IMG/VR virus record: IMGVR_UViG_2706794691_000014
Direction: 5' to 3' (one strand)
DNA from: a virus
Lineage: Duplodnaviria > Heunggongvirae > Uroviricota > Caudoviricetes
Length of the DNA stretch: 5,712 bases
This document shows positions 1 through 5,712 of this stretch, in pieces. The position numbers and the translations under genes were made by a program. Numbering within the stretch: the first letter of the stretch is position 1; the number at the start of each line of letters is the position of its first letter. The notes under the pieces are model-generated. The model was not told the DNA's origin, made no database searches, and saw nothing but the letters and a program-made list of their open reading frames with translations.

Positions 1-76
1 ATCAAGAACATAACGAAACATAATTCCCCATTATACGCGCGTATAATGGGGAATTATGTTTCGTTATGTTCTTGAT
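1..76. other. telRL: Protelomerase target site / hairpin-telomere palindrome (telRL-like, N15 family). Perfect 76-bp palindrome centred between positions 38 and 39.
   Basis: Checked by hand: positions 1-38 are the exact reverse complement of 39-76. The central 22 bp (28-49, CCATTATACGCGCGTATAATGG) matches the N15 telO core as I recall it, with an alternating CGCGCG centre. The palindrome starts at window position 1, so any further extension cannot be seen. Confidence 0.8.
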
Positions 77-77
77 T

Positions 78-210
78 AGTGTTCTTATTTAGTGTAATAT
101 TCTCATTTTGTGTACTGCTTTATTTAACATTTAGCTTTAATTCTTTATTTGTGTTCTTTATTATGTTTGCATCATTACTTAGTTTTTGTGTTCTTTATTT
201 GTGTTCTTGT
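78..210. repeat. AT-rich spacer carrying iterated short repeats: an 18-bp direct repeat TTCTTTATTTGTGTTCTT at 141-158 and 191-208, plus related GTGTTCTT(T)ATTT copies at about 80-95 and 188-200.
   Basis: Direct reading of the sequence. Repeated motifs lie between the telomere palindrome and the sopA promoter. Function unknown: possibly accessory protelomerase sites (tos-like) or other protein-binding sites. Confidence 0.5.
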
Positions 211-394
211 ATTGGTAAGGTTGGGAGAACTAATAGAGAAAACGTATCTCATTGATGATTCTTATCATGTTTCCCTAGTTTTACATGATTTCCTTTCTTC
301 AAAAAATATAATAAATATCAATTACTTATGATTATGTTGTTGTTCGTTTTATGCATTTCGGGAGGGGAACAAAAGATGATTTAGCTTAAAAATT

Positions 395-496
395 CTCCTT
401 TGCGTTTTTCTTTTTGCTTTGCCTTTTTCATGCAAATTTGCTAGAAATAAGCAAAGATTTAATTATTAAGCAAAGTTACAAGCTGGAGATGACAGT
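395..496 (+). promoter_or_regulatory. sopA promoter/operator region with CTTTGC hexamer repeats (SopA autoregulatory operator) and ribosome-binding site.
   Basis: CTTTGC at 398-403 and 417-422; its reverse complement GCAAAG at 451-456 and 470-475; variants TTTTGC at 412-417 and ATTTGC at 436-441. GGAG at 484-487 lies 9 nt upstream of the ATG at 497. In F plasmid, SopA binds CTTTGC repeats overlapping the sop promoter (established knowledge). Exact -35/-10 elements not assigned. Confidence 0.6.
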
Positions 497-1663
497 ATGT
501 CTTTGAAAAAGCTATTGCAAGATTGTGTTACGAGAGGTCAAGAAATGACCCAAGCAATTGCTATCGCTCAATTCGGTGATGATAGTCCTGAAGCTCGGCG
601 TATCACCCGCCGATGGGGTATTACTGAAGTAGCAGATTTAATTGGTGTAACTCCTCAAGCAATTAGAGATGCTGAGAAGAGCGGGCGTTTACCTGCACCT
701 GACTTTGAAATGAGAGGAAGAATTGAACGTCGTGCTGGTTATACCATAGATCAAATCAACAGTATGCGAGCAGTTTTTGGCAACCCAAACCAACGACCAC
801 AAGATAAAAACCCTGTTGTTCTTGCCGTTATGTCACACAAAGGCGGCGTTTATAAAACATCGTCTGCGGTACATCAAGCTCAATGGTTAGCATTACAAGG
901 TCATCGTGTTCTTTTGGTTGAAGGTAACGATCCTCAAGGTACAGCCTCTATGTATCACGGTTATGTTCCTGATTTACATATCCATGCCGAGGATACTTTA
1001 CTGCCATTTTACTTAGGAGAACGCGATAACGCTGAATATGCTATAAAGCCAACATGTTGGCCTGGGCTAGACATTATCCCTAGCTGCCTAGCTTTACATC
1101 GTATAGAAACAGATCTCATGCAATATCATGCTCAGGGTAAATTGCCTCATCCTCCACACCTTATGCTGCGCGCAGCTATTGAATCAGTTTGGGATAACTA
1201 CGATGTTATCGTTATAGATAGTGCTCCGAACCTCGGTACAGGAACCATTAACGTTGTTTGTGCCGCTGACGTTATTGTTGTTGCTACACCTGCAGAATTA
1301 TTTGATTACGCTTCTGTTCTACAGTTTTTCACAATGCTTCTCGATCTATTGGAAAGCGTTGACCTAGGTGGATTTGAGCCAACCGTTCGCTTACTTCTGA
1401 CTAAATATAGTCTCACTACAGGGAATCAATCACGATGGATGGAAGAACAAATAAGAAATACATGGGGATCAATGGTATTACGTCAGGTTGTACGCGTTAC
1501 CGATGAAGTAGGTAAAGGCCAGATAAAAATGAGAACAGTATTTGAACAAGCAGCAAACCAACGTTCAACATTGAATGCATGGAGAAATGCTGTTTCTATA
1601 TGGGACCCTGTTTGCAGAGAAATTTTTGATGATCTAATAAAACCTCGCTGGGAGAACGAATAA
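497..1663 (+). CDS. sopA: Partition ATPase SopA (type Ia ParA family) with an N-terminal HTH DNA-binding domain and a deviant Walker A box.
   Basis: 388-aa ORF. Deviant Walker A KGGVYKTS at residues 115-122 (nt 839-862). Long stretches match F plasmid SopA as I recall it (EMTxAIAIAQFxDDSPEARxITRRW; LLVEGNDPQGTASMYHGxVPDLHIHAEDTLLPFYLGE; KPTCWPGLDIIPSCLALHRIET; YDVIVIDSAPNLGxGTINVVCAADV; GKGQIxMRTVFEQA; KPRWE). Good RBS. Stop codon overlaps the sopB start. Confidence 0.95.
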   Translation: MSLKKLLQDCVTRGQEMTQAIAIAQFGDDSPEARRITRRWGITEVADLIGVTPQAIRDAEKSGRLPAPDFEMRGRIERRAGYTIDQINSMRAVFGNPNQRPQDKNPVVLAVMSHKGGVYKTSSAVHQAQWLALQGHRVLLVEGNDPQGTASMYHGYVPDLHIHAEDTLLPFYLGERDNAEYAIKPTCWPGLDIIPSCLALHRIETDLMQYHAQGKLPHPPHLMLRAAIESVWDNYDVIVIDSAPNLGTGTINVVCAADVIVVATPAELFDYASVLQFFTMLLDLLESVDLGGFEPTVRLLLTKYSLTTGNQSRWMEEQIRNTWGSMVLRQVVRVTDEVGKGQIKMRTVFEQAANQRSTLNAWRNAVSIWDPVCREIFDDLIKPRWENE

Positions 1664-2628
1664 TGAAACAGCGCTCTCTTCTAAAAAATGCTCCAGATAT
1701 TAATCGCATTATGAGTAATAATCATCATGCCCCTGAACATCAGCCCGTATCACCTATGGTTGGTGATTTAAAACGTCAACTGAGTTCATTAACCGGTAAC
1801 AGCATAACTTTGCCAGTATGCGGACGTAATGTTAACTTTAAGTTAGAGACAATTCCCGCAGATAAAGTTGAAATGGCAACAATGGTATGGCTAGGTAATG
1901 AACGCGATCAAGATTTATTAAATGAATCCTCTCTAGCCGATTTAATCCCATCTTTTCTAACGTCTGGACAACAAAATCCAGCTTTCGCCAGAAAAGTATC
2001 TGGAATCGTTGAAGTCGCTGACGGCTCACGTAGAAGAAAAGCAGCGATATTAACAGGATGTGACTATCGCGTCTTAATTGGTGATCTCGACGATGAACAG
2101 ATGCATTGGTTATCCCAAATTGGTAACGATTATAGGCCTATTAGTGCATACGAAAGAGGAAAGAGATACTTACGCAAGCTAAATGACTTTGATGGTAACG
2201 TTAAAGCATTGGCCGAGGCTGAAAATATAGATAGAAATATTATCACTCGCTGTATTAATACAGCTGGTCTACCAAAAGATATATTAGCTATCTTCAATCA
2301 TCCAGGAGAACTGTCAGCTCGTGCTGGAGATTCTTTGTTTAAGATTTACAAAAAAAACATGGCTGCCATGAGCAATGCTGCTCATCATCTTCTGACAATA
2401 AAAAAAAACGGCGAGGATTTAGAAGCTTCACGGATTATACAAATATTATCTGACTCTGTTCTGGTTGGCGACGAGGAAAAAACAAAAGACGAGAAAAAAT
2501 ATGGGGAAGGGATCACGGCTAGATATAAAGGGAATTTTGTAACTATAAAAATTGATAGCCGCAAAATATCTAAAGAAATACTAAGCAAAATTGAGTTGTT
2601 ACTAGAGGAACAATCTACTGATAATTAA
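1663..2628 (+). CDS. sopB: Partition centromere-binding protein SopB (ParB family).
   Basis: 321-aa ORF. ATG at 1663-1665 overlaps the sopA TAA (1661-1663) as TAATG, indicating translational coupling. Matches recalled F SopB motifs (NAITLPVCGRxVxFxLE; WxGNERDQxLL; LIPSFLxTGQQxPAFxRxVSGxxExADGSRRRKAA; DYRVLxGxLDDEQM; LGNDYRPxSAYERGxRY; NIxRxIITRCINTAxLPK; FxHPGELSARxGD). Same order and size as the F/N15 sopAB operon. Confidence 0.93.
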   Translation: MKQRSLLKNAPDINRIMSNNHHAPEHQPVSPMVGDLKRQLSSLTGNSITLPVCGRNVNFKLETIPADKVEMATMVWLGNERDQDLLNESSLADLIPSFLTSGQQNPAFARKVSGIVEVADGSRRRKAAILTGCDYRVLIGDLDDEQMHWLSQIGNDYRPISAYERGKRYLRKLNDFDGNVKALAEAENIDRNIITRCINTAGLPKDILAIFNHPGELSARAGDSLFKIYKKNMAAMSNAAHHLLTIKKNGEDLEASRIIQILSDSVLVGDEEKTKDEKKYGEGITARYKGNFVTIKIDSRKISKEILSKIELLLEEQSTDN

Positions 2629-2660: not shown

Positions 2661-3236
2661 TTATGGTTGACTTGGCCACTCGATATCTGGAGATAGTGAT
2701 GTATCAACACGATTCAACAACACCCGATATGTCTTCCATGCGGCCAGTAACGATTTCTCTTCCTCCGTTGCGATCTCAAGATCTACCGCATCCTGAAGCG
2801 GCGCAATATGCTCACTGGCTACCTGCATCAGGCTGTTTTTTGTTTCTTCCGCCTCCCGGATCCGGAATAGTTTTTCTGCTTCTGCATCTTTCACCCAGGC
2901 TGTGCCGTTCCACTTCTGATATTCCCCTTCCGGCGATAACCAGGTAACATTTTCCGGTAACGGACCGAGTTCAGAAATAAATAACGCGTCCCCTGATGCC
3001 ACGTCATAAACTGTTTTACCCCGATGGTCTTCAACAAGATGCCACGATGCATCATCACTGTTGAAAACAGCCACGAAGCCAGCCGGAATATCTGGCGGTG
3101 CAATATCGGTACTGTTTGCTGGCAGACCTGTATGAGGCGGAATGTATGCGTCACCTTCACCAATAAATTCATTAGTTCCGGCCAGCAGATTATAAATTTT
3201 TATGGTCCGTGGTTGTTCACTCATTCTGAATGCCAT
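2661..3236 (-). CDS. tfa: Tail fibre assembly protein (lambda Tfa family chaperone).
   Basis: 191-aa ORF. The N-terminal ~170 residues ([61 protein letters not shown]...) closely match lambda Tfa and E. coli cryptic-prophage Tfa proteins as I recall them. Start ATG (3234-3236, minus strand) overlaps the stf stop as TAATG. Lies immediately downstream of stf, as in lambda. Confidence 0.92.
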
Positions 3237-5712
3237 TATGCAAGCCTCACAATATAGTTAAATGCGATGTTTTTGACGGTGTTTTCCGCGTTACCAGCAG
3301 CGTTAACGGTGATGGTGTGTCCATGTGAACCAATCGCAACGGAGTGCGTATGAGCACCAATACCGACAGTATGCGCGTGTGCACCTGCAGATGCTGCTGT
3401 GCCGGACAGTGAGTGGCTATGATTACCATCTGTACTGGTATTAGCTAACCACCCCGTAGACATACCTACTGAGCCTTGTACACCCCAGGTATTTTGACCT
3501 GAGCTTGTATAACCATATTGATAAGTATCTTTAAAAACACTGGGGTTAAATCGACGGCCATCTCTATGGCTGTGATTACCAGCTGCATTCGTGCTGCCAC
3601 TTAAACTATGGGTATGCGCACCAGTGTTATTCGTGGATTTAGTGCCGTAATCAAACGACGATGTGGTTTTCGTCCCCAAATCCGTACTGGATGCGCTGGC
3701 GCTGTGGGTATGCGATTTAATGCCGTCCTGTTCCTGAGACAATACGGCCCGACCACTGGCAGGTTTGCCCTTAATCGTCCAGCCACGCATATCAGGGATC
3801 ACGCCTGACGGATAAGCCGCTGCAAGTTTCGGGTATGCAGATTTGTCAAAAGCCTGCCCCTGCATCAGGGCATAGCCAGACGGAACGGTATCTGATGGCC
3901 ACGGGATTGGTGCGCCAGGCGGATAAAACTGCTCTGATGGCGTATAGAGTGAATAAACTGTACCGTCCGTTAACCCTTCCGGCTTATTAGCAGAATATGC
4001 TGGTGACGTATGAATCGTCACGCTGGCATTACTGGTATAATCCCATTGAATATTTACACCAGTCGCATAATTTCCGATTGCAACGTAAATATCGTAAGTA
4101 TCACCAGATGTATTAACCCAGGCAAAATTTGTAAACCCTGTCAATGTGCGCTGCCATAAAGCACCAGTAATCCCCTTCGGATTACCATTACCTGCACGTA
4201 AAACAAGTTCAGATATACCTGCCTGTTGAGGTGACCCCACGTTAAATCCAGCGCCACCAATCAACGTAATTGAAACAACAGAACTCGCCTGTGGCATGGT
4301 TACCGTTGCTAATTTGAACCAACCAGCACCACCGCTGAATGACATTGTTGTTGAGTTAAGCGTACCAATATCTTTCGGCGTCAGTGTTATATCCGCTGAA
4401 AGCGCCTTACCATTCACCTTACGGGCAGAAGGTACCCGACCATTCGCATTGTCATTAGCTGCTTTCACTGCTTTCGGTGTCGCAGCAAGCGTTTCAGATG
4501 TGCTGTTGGTTGCACTACTGAGCTGGACAATTCCTTTTTGTGCTGTCGTAGCGTCCTGTGCGGTGTATTTCCCGTTAGCCAGGTCATACGCGGCCTTAAC
4601 GGCTTTTGGCGTTGCCGCCTGTGACTCGGAAGTGCTGTTAGTCGCACTGCTGAGCTGAACTATCCCTTTCTGTGCTGTCGTTGCATCCTGTGCGGTGTAT
4701 TTCCCGTTAGCCAGGTCATACGCGGCCTTAACGGCTTTTGGCGTTGCCGCCTGTGACTCGGAAGTGCTGTTGGTCGCACTGCTGAGCTGTACTATCCCCT
4801 TTTTCGTCGTGCTCGCATCCTCAAGCGCCACGGCGGATGCAATATCCTCTGCCCGTTTTGCTGCTGTCTCGGCGCGCGTTGCCGCGGATTCCGCCGTACT
4901 TTTGCTCNNNNNNNNNNNNNNNNNNNNNNNNNNNNNNNNNNNNNNNNNNNNNNNNNNNNNNNNNNNNNNNNNNNNNNNNNNNNNNNNNNNNNNNNNNNNN
5001 NNNNNNNNNNNNNNNNNNNNNNNNNNNNNNNNNNNNNNNNNNNNNNNNNNNNNNNNNNNNNNNNNNNNNNNNNNNNNNNNNNNNNNNNNNNNNNNNNNNN
5101 NNNNNNNNNNNNNNNNNNNNNNNNNNNNNNNNNNNNNCTCAGAGTCTGCCGCAGCTGAGGCGCTCTGTTCCGCTGCCGTTTCAGAAGACTTAGCATTCGT
5201 CTCGGACGTTTTTGCCGCCTTCACGGAATTTCCTGCCGCCGTTGCCGAGGAGGCTGCACTGCTGGCGCTTGTGGAGGCGTTCGTTTCTGATGATTTTGCC
5301 GCCTCTTTGGAGGCCGCCGCATCTCTGGCTGAAGTGGCGGCTTCTGACGCTTTCGTTGTCGCAGTGGATGCAGAAGTGGCTGCTGATTTTTGTGACGCTG
5401 CAGCATTCGTTTCTGACGTTTTCGCCGCACCGGCACTGGTGGCCGCCGCGCTTTTTGAGGACTCTGCAGCGGCAGCACTTTTTGATGCTTCAGTGGCCTT
5501 TGTTGATGCCGTTCCTGCGCTGGAAGACGCCTCCTGAGCCGAAGTCGCGGCCTGTCCGGCTGACGTGCTGGCTGCACGCGCTGAGCCTGCAGCATCAGTC
5601 GCATGGGTTGCCGCCTCACGGGCAGATGTGCCGGCATCACTGGCTGACTTCTTCGCGGCTGCCGTGTTCTGTGCCACCGCGGACGCGTTACGCGCCACCT
5701 CTTCCACCATCA
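3236..5712 (-). CDS. stf: Side tail fibre protein (lambda Stf-like), 5'-partial: the true start lies beyond the window end. Interrupted by a 230-nt N run at 4908-5137.
   Basis: Open frame runs to the window edge. The ATG at 5708-5710 corresponds to the internal [13 protein letters not shown] segment of lambda Stf (about residue 118 as I recall), so the N-terminus is missing. Ala/Ser/Thr-rich N-terminal region; three copies of the conserved [15 protein letters not shown]...AATPKAVK fibre motif; C-terminal HxH-rich region ending [31 protein letters not shown], which matches the lambda Stf C-terminus. Central domain differs from lambda (mosaic). Confidence 0.9.
4555..4818. repeat. Near-perfect tandem duplication of a 132-bp unit (4555-4686 and 4687-4818) inside stf, encoding two 44-aa copies of the [14 protein letters not shown] fibre repeat. 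A third, more divergent copy lies at about 4430-4554.
   Basis: Direct comparison: the two units are identical apart from a handful of substitutions (for example GTTAGTCG vs GTTGGTCG, and the last ~25 nt of each unit). Period 132 nt is in frame (44 codons). Confidence 0.85.
4908..5137. other. Run of 230 N: assembly/scaffold gap or masked sequence inside the stf coding region.
   Basis: Contiguous N characters from 4908 to 5137, flanked on both sides by Ala/Ser/Thr-rich low-complexity coding sequence on the minus strand. Confidence 0.99.

What the first reader, a model, noticed from the sequence alone, without database searches (positions are those of the whole stretch)
78..210. Iterated GTGTTCTT(T)ATTT repeats between the telomere palindrome and the sop promoter
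An exact 18-bp direct repeat (141-158, 191-208) plus two or three related copies lie in a non-coding AT-rich stretch right beside the tel palindrome. In N15 the extended tos site includes flanking repeats that assist protelomerase binding. These could be the equivalent, or binding sites for another protein such as a nucleoid protein, or regulatory sites for sopAB or telN. No annotated feature explains them.
Basis: seen in the sequence. Interest (0 to 1): 0.5.

Follow-up and report, generated by a model that had tools for sequence, protein, structure and literature searches.

The report
Protelomerase-site repeats beside phage hairpin telomere
The repeated GTGTTCTT motifs are the left-telomere copy of the "tos" accessory repeats already described around the telomere site of phage N15, most likely extra docking sites for the phage's telomere-making enzyme, so this is a real but essentially known kind of feature.

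Summary
GTGTTCTT occurs exactly at 79, 151, 188 and 201, the 18-mer at 141-158 equals 191-208, and the array resolves into three 23-nt two-box units (64-86, 136-158, 186-208).

The window is the sop-side (telL) end of an N15-like E. coli linear plasmid-prophage. Bases 1-38 are the read-through mirror of the hairpin, not a native left flank.

In a 99.7%-identical complete relative, the degenerate box TTRTGTKCT occurs 7 times in 47 kb. Six of those lie within 200 bp of the telomere centre, on both arms, all pointing away from the hairpin. That box covers both the telRL outer L3/R3 box and the flank repeats.

Units B and C align with the two repeat units on the sop side of the N15 tos region. The motif changes with the phage's own telRL half-site: PY54 and a 57%-identity TelN lineage use GGTTAC, and phiKO2 uses TTGTGTTATGAT. 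That points to the phage protelomerase as the binder rather than a host protein.

SopB centromere sites and the SopA operator lie elsewhere and look different.

Verdict: a new member of a known kind, the N15 tos R1/R2-type repeats. Binding by protelomerase and the biological role (complex stabilisation, end capping, or promoter control) are inferred, not shown. Interest is low to moderate.

The parts
1..76 (.). Telomere palindrome. Bases 39-76 are the native sop-side (telL) half-site, with the telO half GCGTATAATGG at 39-49. Bases 1-38 are its exact mirror, from reading round the hairpin or from the replicated telLL junction. The physical end of the prophage DNA is the hairpin turn at 38/39.
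   Evidence: Arms of 38+38 nt are 100% complementary. The core equals N15 telO. In the phage-form relative L001 the left arm differs from arm position 22 on. In CP088810 the palindrome runs 3038 nt with 0 mismatches, which is a read-through assembly. IMG/VR contigs with the identical arm (L013) or a closely related one (L048) stop 21-32 nt past the centre.
53..65 (+). R3-position outer box of the telL half-site, degenerate in this clade: ATTATGTTTCGTT. The telN arm of the same genome, and the sop arm of the PhiR46-type relatives, have ATTATGTGCTGAT at this position; N15 and most phiKO2-class arms have ATTGTGTGCTGAT.
   Evidence: Alignment of 28 unique sop-side arms. Comparison with the telN arm of the same genome, L022.
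64..86 (+). Two-box unit A, TTATGTTCTTGATTAGTGTTCTT. The boxes start at 66 and 79, 13 bp apart. The unit overlaps the outer end of the palindrome arm.
   Evidence: Reference copy of the 23-nt repeat family D1. The 18-mer matches at 69-86 with 2 mismatches. Invariant in the 9 clade arms apart from 2 positions.
97..117 (+). Two degenerate single boxes: ATATTCTC (97-104; ATGTTCTC in close relatives, ATGTTCCG in the N15 class) and TTGTGTACTG (108-117; GTGTTCTC in the PhiR46 type).
   Evidence: Alignment columns 59-90. TTGTGTT with at most 1 mismatch at arm position 70.
136..158 (+). Two-box unit B, TTTAATTCTTTATTTGTGTTCTT. It contains the first copy of the exact 18-mer (141-158). It is the positional homologue of the N15 unit TTGTGTTCTGTTATGGTGTTCTTAG.
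186..208 (+). Two-box unit C, TTGTGTTCTTTATTTGTGTTCTT. It contains the second copy of the exact 18-mer (191-208). It is the outermost unit (arm positions 148-170), the positional homologue of the N15 unit TGATGTTCTTTGATTGTGTTTCAATA, and the mirror counterpart of the unit just upstream of telN on the other arm.
   Evidence: This is the most conserved stretch outside telRL in the 28-arm alignment.
398..475 (+). Context, not part of the repeats: the sopAB promoter/operator. CTTTGC hexamers at 398 and 417, inverted GCAAAG at 451 and 470, and the best sigma-70-like site TTGCCT-17-TAGAAA at 419-447.
   Evidence: Hexamer positions. F/N15/phiKO2 ParA-operator architecture from PMC8465637. Promoter scoring.
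497..2628 (+). Context: sopA (497-1663) and sopB (1663-2628), the partition genes transcribed away from the telomere.
   Evidence: Pfam AAA_31/CbiA and SoPB_HTH. RefSeq annotation of relatives.

Best explanation
**What it is.** The repeats are the sop-side (telL) set of tos accessory repeats of an N15-like linear plasmid-prophage.
- Each box (core TTGTGTTCT) is a degenerate, outward-facing copy of the outer L3/R3 box of the telomere resolution site (TTRTGTGCT).
- Most boxes are paired 13 bp apart into three 23-nt units.

**How it most likely works (inferred).**
- The phage protelomerase (TelN-type) recognises the outer box in telRL with its C-terminal DNA-binding region. Additional protelomerase molecules also occupy these boxes.
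- The resulting multi-protein complex covers about 170 bp next to the hairpin.
- It would raise the local enzyme concentration and stabilise binding at the replicated telLL junction and at the finished hairpin.
- On the opposite arm, the same kind of unit sits on the telN promoter region and would give autoregulation.

**What is shown and what is inferred.** Identity, homology, orientation and telomere specificity of the repeats are shown here. Protein binding and its consequences are inferred.
For: 1. **Context.** The palindrome core is identical to N15 telO, followed by sopA and sopB. Relatives carry a protelomerase gene on the other side of telRL.
2. **Telomere specificity.**
   - In the 47.4-kb relative L003, TGTGTTCT occurs 4 times, all within 170 bp of the centre.
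   - An unbiased 7-mer enrichment gives TTGTGTT as the top word in the flanks of both arms: 6 observed against 0.012 expected, and only 3 elsewhere in the genome. The same top word is found in N15.
   - TTRTGTKCT covers both L3/R3 and the flank boxes. It occurs 7 times in L003 with 6 within ±200 bp, and 5 of 5 in N15.
3. **Orientation.** Nearly all copies on both arms read away from the hairpin. No sop arm of the 28 has an inverted copy; most N15- and phiKO2-class telN arms have a single conserved inverted copy at arm position 34, and two N15-class arms a second one at 122.
4. **Positional homology.** In a MAFFT alignment of 28 unique sop arms at about 45% overall identity between classes, units B and C align with the two N15 units. 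They form the best-conserved columns outside telRL.
5. **Change with the half-site.**
   - PY54 half-site AGGTTAC, flanks iterate GGGTTAC.
   - L047 (TelN 57% identical) half-site TGGTGAC, flanks TGGTTAC.
   - phiKO2 flanks TTGTGTTATGAT.
   - VP882 and phiHAP-1 have their own TATGTA-type arrays.
6. **Conservation within the clade.** Box columns vary less than spacer columns (odds ratio about 3, P about 0.01-0.02).
7. **Literature.**
   - N15 tos is 310 bp, with degenerate L1/L2/R1/R2 copies of L3/R3. TelN CTD1 binding is proposed (PMC12624138).
   - A flanking repeat has been suggested to matter for PY54 processing in vivo (PMC10612081).
   - TelK monomers preferentially bind target sequence before dimerising (PMC3575837).
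Against: - No binding data exist for this phage. Even for N15 the role of the flank repeats is untested.
- TelN CTD1, the proposed reader of the boxes, is dispensable for end protection.
- The P840 telRL is processed in vivo without its flanking repeat. N15 telRL (56 bp) or even telO alone is processed in vitro (Deneke 2002, as cited).
- The boxes are not in a constant helical phase: spacings are 10, 13, 31, 41, 37 and 13 bp.
- In the T-rich local composition some repetition is expected.
- The two arms of the window lineage are not otherwise similar (z = 1.0), so symmetry is limited to the boxes.
Confidence: 0.75

Rival explanations
1. The boxes are bound by a different protein, either a host nucleoid-associated protein (H-NS, IHF or Fis type) or another phage regulator. 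That protein would organise or silence the AT-rich subtelomeric DNA. The resemblance to L3/R3 would then be incidental.
For: The region has 27% GC and about 50% T on one strand, which is typical H-NS-prone DNA. There is no direct evidence for TelN occupancy. CTD1 is dispensable for protection.
Against: The motif changes with the phage's own telRL half-site across hosts that share these nucleoid proteins: TTGTGTT in N15 and E. coli phages, GGTTAC in PY54 and L047, TATGTA in the marine phages. The boxes are absent from other AT-rich DNA of the same genome. The strict outward orientation on both arms points to a telomere-specific reader.
Confidence: 0.12
2. The boxes are evolutionary residue with no function of their own. 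Telomere arms exchange and duplicate through the palindromic LL and RR replication intermediates, which leaves decaying copies of the half-site in low-complexity T-rich DNA.
For: The N15 arms form an extended imperfect palindrome out to the telN ATG (z = 10.8), which shows past arm duplication. The exact 18-bp duplicate looks recent and is not exact in sister lineages. Local shuffles often give 4 copies of some 8-mer.
Against: Box positions and orientation persist across classes whose spacers have diverged to about 45% identity, and across TelN divergence to 57% and 43% identity. Boxes are more conserved than spacers within the clade.
Confidence: 0.08
3. The boxes are SopB (ParB) centromere-like or SopA operator sites serving partition of the linear plasmid.
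For: They lie upstream of sopAB.
Against: The N15-type SopB site TGCGACCNNGGTCGCA (PMC7205306) occurs 5 times in the relative's genome, far from the telomere, and not at all in the window. The SopA operator hexamers CTTTGC lie at 398-475, with the F/N15 spacing pattern. Neither resembles GTGTTCTT.
Confidence: 0.02
4. The stretch encodes a small hydrophobic protein (ORF 79-255, 58 aa, GTG start), and the repeats are a by-product of its codons.
For: The frame stays open in all 9 clade arms.
Against: - There is no ribosome-binding site, and the start lies 41 nt from the DNA end.
- No sigma-70-like promoter lies upstream.
- L026 and L040 carry a frameshifting 1-nt deletion yet remain open, because stops are rare on a T-rich strand.
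- There is no Pfam or PHROG match.
- N15 and phiKO2 have no such ORF annotated.
Confidence: 0.02

Closest known systems
N15 tos (telomerase occupancy site) accessory repeats L1/L2 and R1/R2 flanking telRL (Deneke et al. 2000, 2002, as summarised in PMC12624138)
   Same: - Same position: within about 170 bp of the telRL centre.
- Same core: TTGTGTT(C), a degenerate copy of the L3/R3 box.
- Same outward orientation on both arms.
- Units B and C align with the N15 sop-side units.
- Same gene context: telN | telRL | sopAB.
   Different: - More copies, and more uniform ones: three 23-nt two-box units including an exact 18-mer pair. TTGTGTT with at most 1 mismatch occurs 9 times against 5 in N15.
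- The tail of each box is TTTAT rather than GTTA/CGATA.
- The neighbouring R3 box of the half-site is itself degenerate in this clade.
- Apart from the boxes, the two arms are not similar, unlike in N15.
Flanking inverted repeat of the PY54 / vB_YenS_P840 telRL region
   Same: Short repeats just outside the telomere palindrome that resemble the phage's own half-site. They have been suggested to aid in vivo processing by the protelomerase (sequences).
   Different: The motif is different (GGGTTAC). It is described as one inverted pair rather than an array. It was shown to be dispensable for P840.
Plasmid replication iterons (for example F RepE, P1 RepA)
   Same: Iterated, same-orientation short repeats in AT-rich non-coding DNA of a low-copy plasmid-prophage. 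They are presumed binding sites of a plasmid-encoded protein.
   Different: These are not next to a rep gene or origin. The N15 origin lies inside repA, which is established knowledge not tested here. The array is mirrored about a hairpin telomere, and its core copies the telomere-resolution half-site.
F/N15 sop regulatory and centromere sites (SopA CTTTGC hexamers; SopB IR sites)
   Same: Repeats in the same intergenic region or the same replicon, serving plasmid maintenance.
   Different: Different sequences and positions: hexamers at 398-475, and the IRs elsewhere in the genome.
Arrays of telomere-protein sites at eukaryotic chromosome ends (for example the yeast Rap1 arrays invoked in PMC12624138)
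   Same: Analogy only: tandem sites for an end-binding protein next to the chromosome terminus.
   Different: No homology. There are a handful of degenerate sites, not a telomerase-made repeat tract, and the end is a covalently closed hairpin.

Membership tests
N15-type tos accessory repeats (L1/L2/R1/R2) | Lie outside the 56-bp telRL but inside the roughly 310-360 bp tos region around it | tested here: met
   The boxes span window 64-208, which is 26-170 bp from the centre. The N15 fragment amplified with the tos primers spans -190 to +172.
N15-type tos accessory repeats (L1/L2/R1/R2) | Degenerate copies of the L3/R3 outer box of telRL | tested here: met
   The flank core TTGTGTTCT differs from the N15 R3 core TTGTGTGCT at 1 of 9 positions. 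TTRTGTKCT hits 6 of 7 (L003) and 5 of 5 (N15) genome-wide occurrences within ±200 bp of the centre, L3/R3 included.
N15-type tos accessory repeats (L1/L2/R1/R2) | Present on both sides of telRL in mirror orientation | tested here: met
   The telN arm of the same genome (L022) and of 24 other unique arms carries boxes at 69/70, 94 and 151. These read outward, as on the sop arm; most N15- and phiKO2-class telN arms also have one inverted copy at arm 34, and two N15-class arms a second at 122. This cannot be seen inside the window itself.
N15-type tos accessory repeats (L1/L2/R1/R2) | Positional homology with the N15 repeats | tested here: met
   MAFFT alignment of 28 unique sop arms. Units B and C align with the N15 units at arm positions 100-124 and 148-172. 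The exact published coordinates of R1/R2 could not be read, because the Deneke papers are not held.
N15-type tos accessory repeats (L1/L2/R1/R2) | Occupied by the cognate protelomerase | not testable with these tools
   This needs footprinting, EMSA or ChIP. The literature calls it 'conceivable' for N15.
SopB (ParB) centromere sites of N15/F type | 16-bp inverted repeat TGCGACCNNGGTCGCA (N15 IR1-4) | tested here: not met
   No match in the window, even with 3 mismatches, inside 78-210. There are 5 exact sites elsewhere in the relative's genome.
SopA (ParA type Ia) operator | CTTTGC hexamers, direct and inverted with fixed spacing, overlapping the sop promoter | tested here: not met
   The hexamers are at 398, 417, 451 and 470. 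None lies in 78-210.
Protein-coding small ORF | Start codon with ribosome-binding site, frame conserved among relatives, family match | tested here: not met
   There is no RBS. A frameshifting indel is present in L026 and L040. There is no Pfam or PHROG hit.
Known structured RNA / sigma-70 promoter | Rfam match at gathering score; -35/-10 consensus | tested here: not met
   The only hits are trivial hairpin matches far below gathering score, on the palindrome. No promoter-like site lies in 78-210. The weak candidate TTGATT-17-TAATAT at 72-100 scores low.

The most novel reading that the evidence does not exclude
Outward-facing arrays of half-site-like boxes may be a general, co-evolving 'subtelomere' of all hairpin-telomere phages (N15, phiKO2, PY54, VP882 and phiHAP-1 types).
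- They would nucleate a multi-protelomerase cap with a fixed architecture. On the telN arm the sites fall at about 16, 34 (inverted), 70, 94 and 151 across TelN divergence down to about 57% identity and, approximately, to PY54 (GGTTAC at about 19, 68, 96 and 146; read by eye from the sequences).
- In this clade the telL half-site has lost its canonical R3 box. The expanded three-unit array would compensate for that loss.
- The array would also couple telomere occupancy to transcription of the adjacent telN and sop genes.
Probability: 0.25. Interest if true: 0.55.

Novelty: new member of a known kind. Interest (0 to 1): 0.3.

Why it matters
- **Annotation.** The result fills an unannotated 130-bp stretch in a widespread family of E. 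coli linear plasmid-prophages.
- **An open question becomes testable.** It gives a concrete, comparative definition of the tos accessory boxes: core, orientation, two-box units and conserved positions on both arms. The role of these boxes has been open since 2000 and was raised again in the 2025 work on TelN end protection.
- **A useful natural variant.** The window clade combines a degenerate R3 box with an enlarged array. That makes it a natural test of whether flank boxes stabilise protelomerase at a weak half-site.
- **Vector design.** The same information is useful for designing minimal or orthogonal telomere cassettes for linear vectors.
- **Data quality.** Many 'circular' or oversized public records of these plasmids are hairpin read-through chimeras.

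Tried and rejected
- **SopB centromere.** I searched the N15 IR consensus. It is absent from the window and present elsewhere in the relative.
- **SopA operator.** It is located at 398-475 and is distinct from the repeats.
- **Promoter or terminator.** The scan found no promoter in 78-210, and the 'terminators' reported are the palindrome itself. A lenient PWM scan gave only weak candidates in this lineage, although the N15 and phiKO2 classes have a -10-like hexamer inside a repeat unit.
- **Rfam.** Nothing meaningful.
- **Small ORFs 79-255 and 149-331.** No family hits, and frameshifts in relatives.
- **Extended arm-to-arm palindrome.** Significant in N15 but not in this lineage.
- **Helical phasing of the boxes.** None is evident.
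- **Literature I could not read.** The primary N15 tos papers (Deneke 2000, 2002), Ravin & Lane 1999 and Casjens 2004 are not held. The exact published R1/R2 coordinates therefore could not be compared.
- **A paper recalled from memory only.** I recall Dorokhov, Lane & Ravin 2003, Mol Microbiol, 'Partition operon expression in the linear plasmid prophage N15 is controlled by both Sop proteins and protelomerase'. It could not be found in the library and is used only as an unverified lead.
- **GTDB scan.** Scanning the GTDB genome collection for the telO core gave one true relative (Pseudocitrobacter). It also gave an unrelated palindrome in a metagenome-assembled genome labelled Clostridia.

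Full report
**1. What the window is**

The window opens with a 76-bp perfect palindrome whose core, CCCATTATACGCGCGTATAATGGG, is the telO core of phage N15. It is followed by:
- a 420-bp AT-rich spacer;
- sopA (497-1663; Pfam AAA_31/CbiA) and sopB (1663-2628; SoPB_HTH);
- lambda-like tail-fibre genes on the minus strand.

Megablast finds the same arrangement in hundreds of E. coli and E. albertii 'plasmids', and in phage PhiR46_1, whose record annotates a telR site. The window is therefore the sop-side (telL) end of an N15-like linear plasmid-prophage.

**2. The palindrome is partly an assembly product**

- In the circularly assembled relative pEA8_3 (L001/L003, 99.7% identical from window position 18), the left of the tel centre leads into the protelomerase gene. 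There the left arm reads ATCAGCACATAATTACCC rather than the mirror of the right arm.
- In CP088810 (81 kb, 'circular') the palindrome continues for 3038 nt without one mismatch, and sopBA is duplicated head to head.
- IMG/VR contigs with the identical arm (L013) or a closely related one (L048) stop 21-32 nt beyond the centre.

So window 1-38 is read-through of the hairpin, equivalent to the replicated telLL junction. The prophage DNA physically turns at 38/39.

**3.

- GTGTTCTT is exact at 79, 151, 188 and 201. ATGTTCTT lies at 66, inside the palindrome arm.
- The 18-mer at 141-158 is identical to 191-208, and a third copy with two mismatches lies at 69-86.
- The array resolves into three 23-nt units at 64-86, 136-158 and 186-208. 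Each unit holds two boxes 13 bp apart.
- Two degenerate single boxes lie at 97-104 and 108-117.
- Whole-window shuffles expect 0.16 GTGTTCTT matches against 5 observed.
- With the local T-rich composition, the 8-mer count alone is not remarkable (2-10% of shuffles). The 18-bp exact repeat is remarkable (at most 1 in 2000).

**4. The repeats are specific to the telomere, lie on both arms and point outward**

All counts below are from the 47.4-kb relative L003 unless stated.
- TGTGTTCT occurs four times on both strands together, all within 170 bp of the tel centre.
- A blind 7-mer enrichment over both flanks (arm positions 29-200) ranks TTGTGTT first: 6 observed, 0.012 expected, and 3 elsewhere in the genome. 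Every copy reads away from the hairpin. N15 gives the same top word.
- One degenerate 9-mer, TTRTGTKCT, covers both the L3/R3 box inside telRL and the flank boxes. It occurs 7 times, 6 of them within ±200 bp. In N15 it occurs 5 times, all within ±200 bp.
- None of 97 other AT-rich 170-nt windows of that genome holds a single TTRTGTT, against up to six per window at the telomere.

**5. Homology with N15 tos**

- Scanning IMG/VR and GTDB for the telO core gave 39 loci. Together with the loci already fetched from the annotated collections, they yielded 28 unique sop arms and 25 unique telN arms.
- The sop arms fall into three classes: window type, N15 type and phiKO2 type. The classes are about 45-50% identical to one another over 300 nt.
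- Even so, units B and C align with the N15 units TTGTGTTCTGTTATGGTGTTCTTAG and TGATGTTCTTTGATTGTGTTTCAATA. These columns are the best conserved outside telRL.
- The N15 fragment amplified with the 'tos' primers of the pJAZZ paper runs from -190 to +172 and contains all these units.
- I could not read the original figures. The assignment to R1/R2 therefore rests on position and sequence, not on published coordinates.

**6. Architecture of the other arm**

- On the telN arm, boxes sit at arm positions 16 (L3), 34 (inverted), 70, 94 and 151 in virtually every lineage.
- This includes L047, whose TelN is only 57% identical. There the box has become TGGTTAC.
- PY54 has GGTTAC at comparable positions, about 19, 68, 96 and 146 (my reading by eye of the sequences; not computed).
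- The outermost unit (N15 TGTTCTTTGATTGTGTTACGATA) has the same two-box form as window unit C. It lies about 25 nt upstream of the telN ribosome-binding site.
- On the sop arm, unit C occupies the mirror position (arm 148-170).

**7. Who binds**

The box sequence changes together with the phage's own half-site.

| Lineage | telRL half-site outer box | Flank repeats |
|---|---|---|
| N15 / E. coli types | TTGTGTGCT | TTGTGTTCT |
| phiKO2 | TTGTGTGCT / TTATGTGCT | TTGTGTTATGAT |
| L047 | TGGTGAC | TGGTTAC |
| PY54 | AGGTTAC | GGGTTAC |
| VP882, phiHAP-1 | (VP882 half-site contains TATGTA) | TATGTA / TGTATG arrays |

(Sources.)

- Host nucleoid proteins are shared among these enterobacteria, so this pattern points to the phage protelomerase.
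- That agrees with the suggestion that the TelN C-terminal domain reads these boxes.
- It also agrees with single-molecule evidence that TelK monomers dwell on target sequence before dimerising.
- Binding itself is inferred. No tool here can test it.

**8. What it does**

The best-supported mechanism is an accessory protelomerase-binding array. It would stabilise or concentrate the enzyme at telLL and at the hairpin, and on the telN arm it would overlap the telN promoter region. Evidence that tempers this:
- CTD1 is dispensable for end protection.
- P840 telRL is processed without its flank repeat.
- The 56-bp site suffices in vitro.

A regulatory role toward sop is possible.
- From memory only, a 2003 Mol Microbiol paper by Dorokhov, Lane and Ravin reported that N15 sop expression is controlled by both Sop proteins and protelomerase. 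I could not retrieve it.
- In the N15 and phiKO2 classes, a sigma-70-like candidate has its -10 inside a repeat unit.
- In the window lineage no convincing promoter overlaps the boxes.

**9. Alternatives rejected**

- The N15-type SopB sites (TGCGACCNNGGTCGCA) occur five times elsewhere in the relative and never in the window.
- The SopA operator hexamers and the best promoter lie at 398-475.
- ORF 79-255 stays open in relatives. However, it lacks an RBS, tolerates a frameshift in two lineages and matches no family.
- Rfam gives nothing.
- A purely relic origin is disfavoured by cross-class conservation of position and orientation, and by lower variability of box columns within the clade (odds ratio about 3, P about 0.01-0.02). 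The latter test is weak, because the sequences are related.

**10. Peculiarities of this clade**

- The R3 box of the telL half-site is degenerate: ATTATGTTTCGTT in six unique arms, against ATTATGTGCTGAT on the telN arm of the same genome and in sister lineages.
- The flank array is richer than in N15: nine against five TTGTGTT-like boxes.
- Whether the array compensates for the weak half-site is speculation, but it is directly testable.

**11. Verdict**

This is a real feature, correctly read by the first stage. It is a new member of the already described N15 tos accessory repeats, whose biochemical role remains unproven. Interest is low to moderate.

Noticed in passing
window 1-38; L009 (CP088810.1) 1-6076; L008 (CP025712.1): The left arm of the palindrome is hairpin read-through. 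Several public 'complete circular' plasmid or phage records of this family are head-to-head chimeras. CP088810 has a 3038-nt perfect palindrome with duplicated sopBA, and YDC107_1 has inverted telN copies.
   Followed up: yes
window 53-65: The R3 outer box of the telL half-site is degenerate in this clade (ATTATGTTTCGTT, six unique arms). The telN arm of the same genome and sister lineages keep ATTATGTGCTGAT. This may be compensated by the adjacent box at 64-76 and the enlarged array.
   Followed up: partly
window 240-300 and 316-328: A block (ACGTATCTCATTGATGATTCTTATCATGTTTC...) lies between the repeats and the sop promoter. Its first 22 bases (239-260) are almost invariant in the nine clade arms, and the rest to about 300 varies at only a few positions. 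TATCAATTACTTA at 316-328 fits the IHF core consensus WATCAANNNNTTR. Its function is unknown.
   Followed up: no
L004 (N15) 24612-24995: The two N15 tos arms are an extended imperfect palindrome out to the telN start codon (alignment z = 10.8). A mirrored purine-rich stretch plus ATG lies on the sop side. The window lineage shows no such arm-wide similarity (z = 1.0).
   Followed up: partly
telN arms of L001, L004, L005, L006, L022, L047 (arm positions 16, 34, 70, 94, 151): The box positions on the telN arm are conserved across all lineages, while the box sequence itself changes (TTGTGTT to TGGTTAC). The outermost two-box unit sits about 25 nt upstream of the telN ribosome-binding site, which suggests autoregulation.
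   Followed up: partly
L003 719, 3162, 8055, 11064, 11284: Five exact N15-type SopB centromere inverted repeats (TGCGACCNNGGTCGCA) are scattered in the relative's genome. None lies in the window.
   Followed up: yes
L004 arm 87-116; L005/L006 arm 96-125 (sop side): In the N15 and phiKO2 classes a sigma-70-like candidate promoter reading toward sopA has its -10 hexamer inside a repeat unit: TATGGT in N15, and the TATGAT of TTGTGTTATGAT in phiKO2. There is no equivalent in the window lineage.
   Followed up: no
L011 (VP882), L012 (phiHAP-1): Marine hairpin-telomere phages also carry mainly outward-facing iterated motifs (TATGTA / TGTATG, up to 10 copies) on both sides of their tel palindromes. 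Such arrays therefore seem general to protelomerase phages.
   Followed up: partly
L051 (JAZNLB010000021.1, MAG labelled Clostridia) 181-208: The 20-nt telO core also matches an unrelated 26-nt palindrome between genes in a Clostridia metagenome-assembled genome. It has no flank boxes, and no sopA or telN lies within the roughly 1.5 kb on the one arm that could be examined (the other arm is only 194 nt). It is probably coincidental.
   Followed up: partly
window 2661-5710 (minus strand): The tail-fibre assembly gene and the side tail-fibre gene are 93-95% identical to those of lambdoid phages (mEp460, PhiR26_1). This is a mosaic joint directly downstream of sopB.
   Followed up: no
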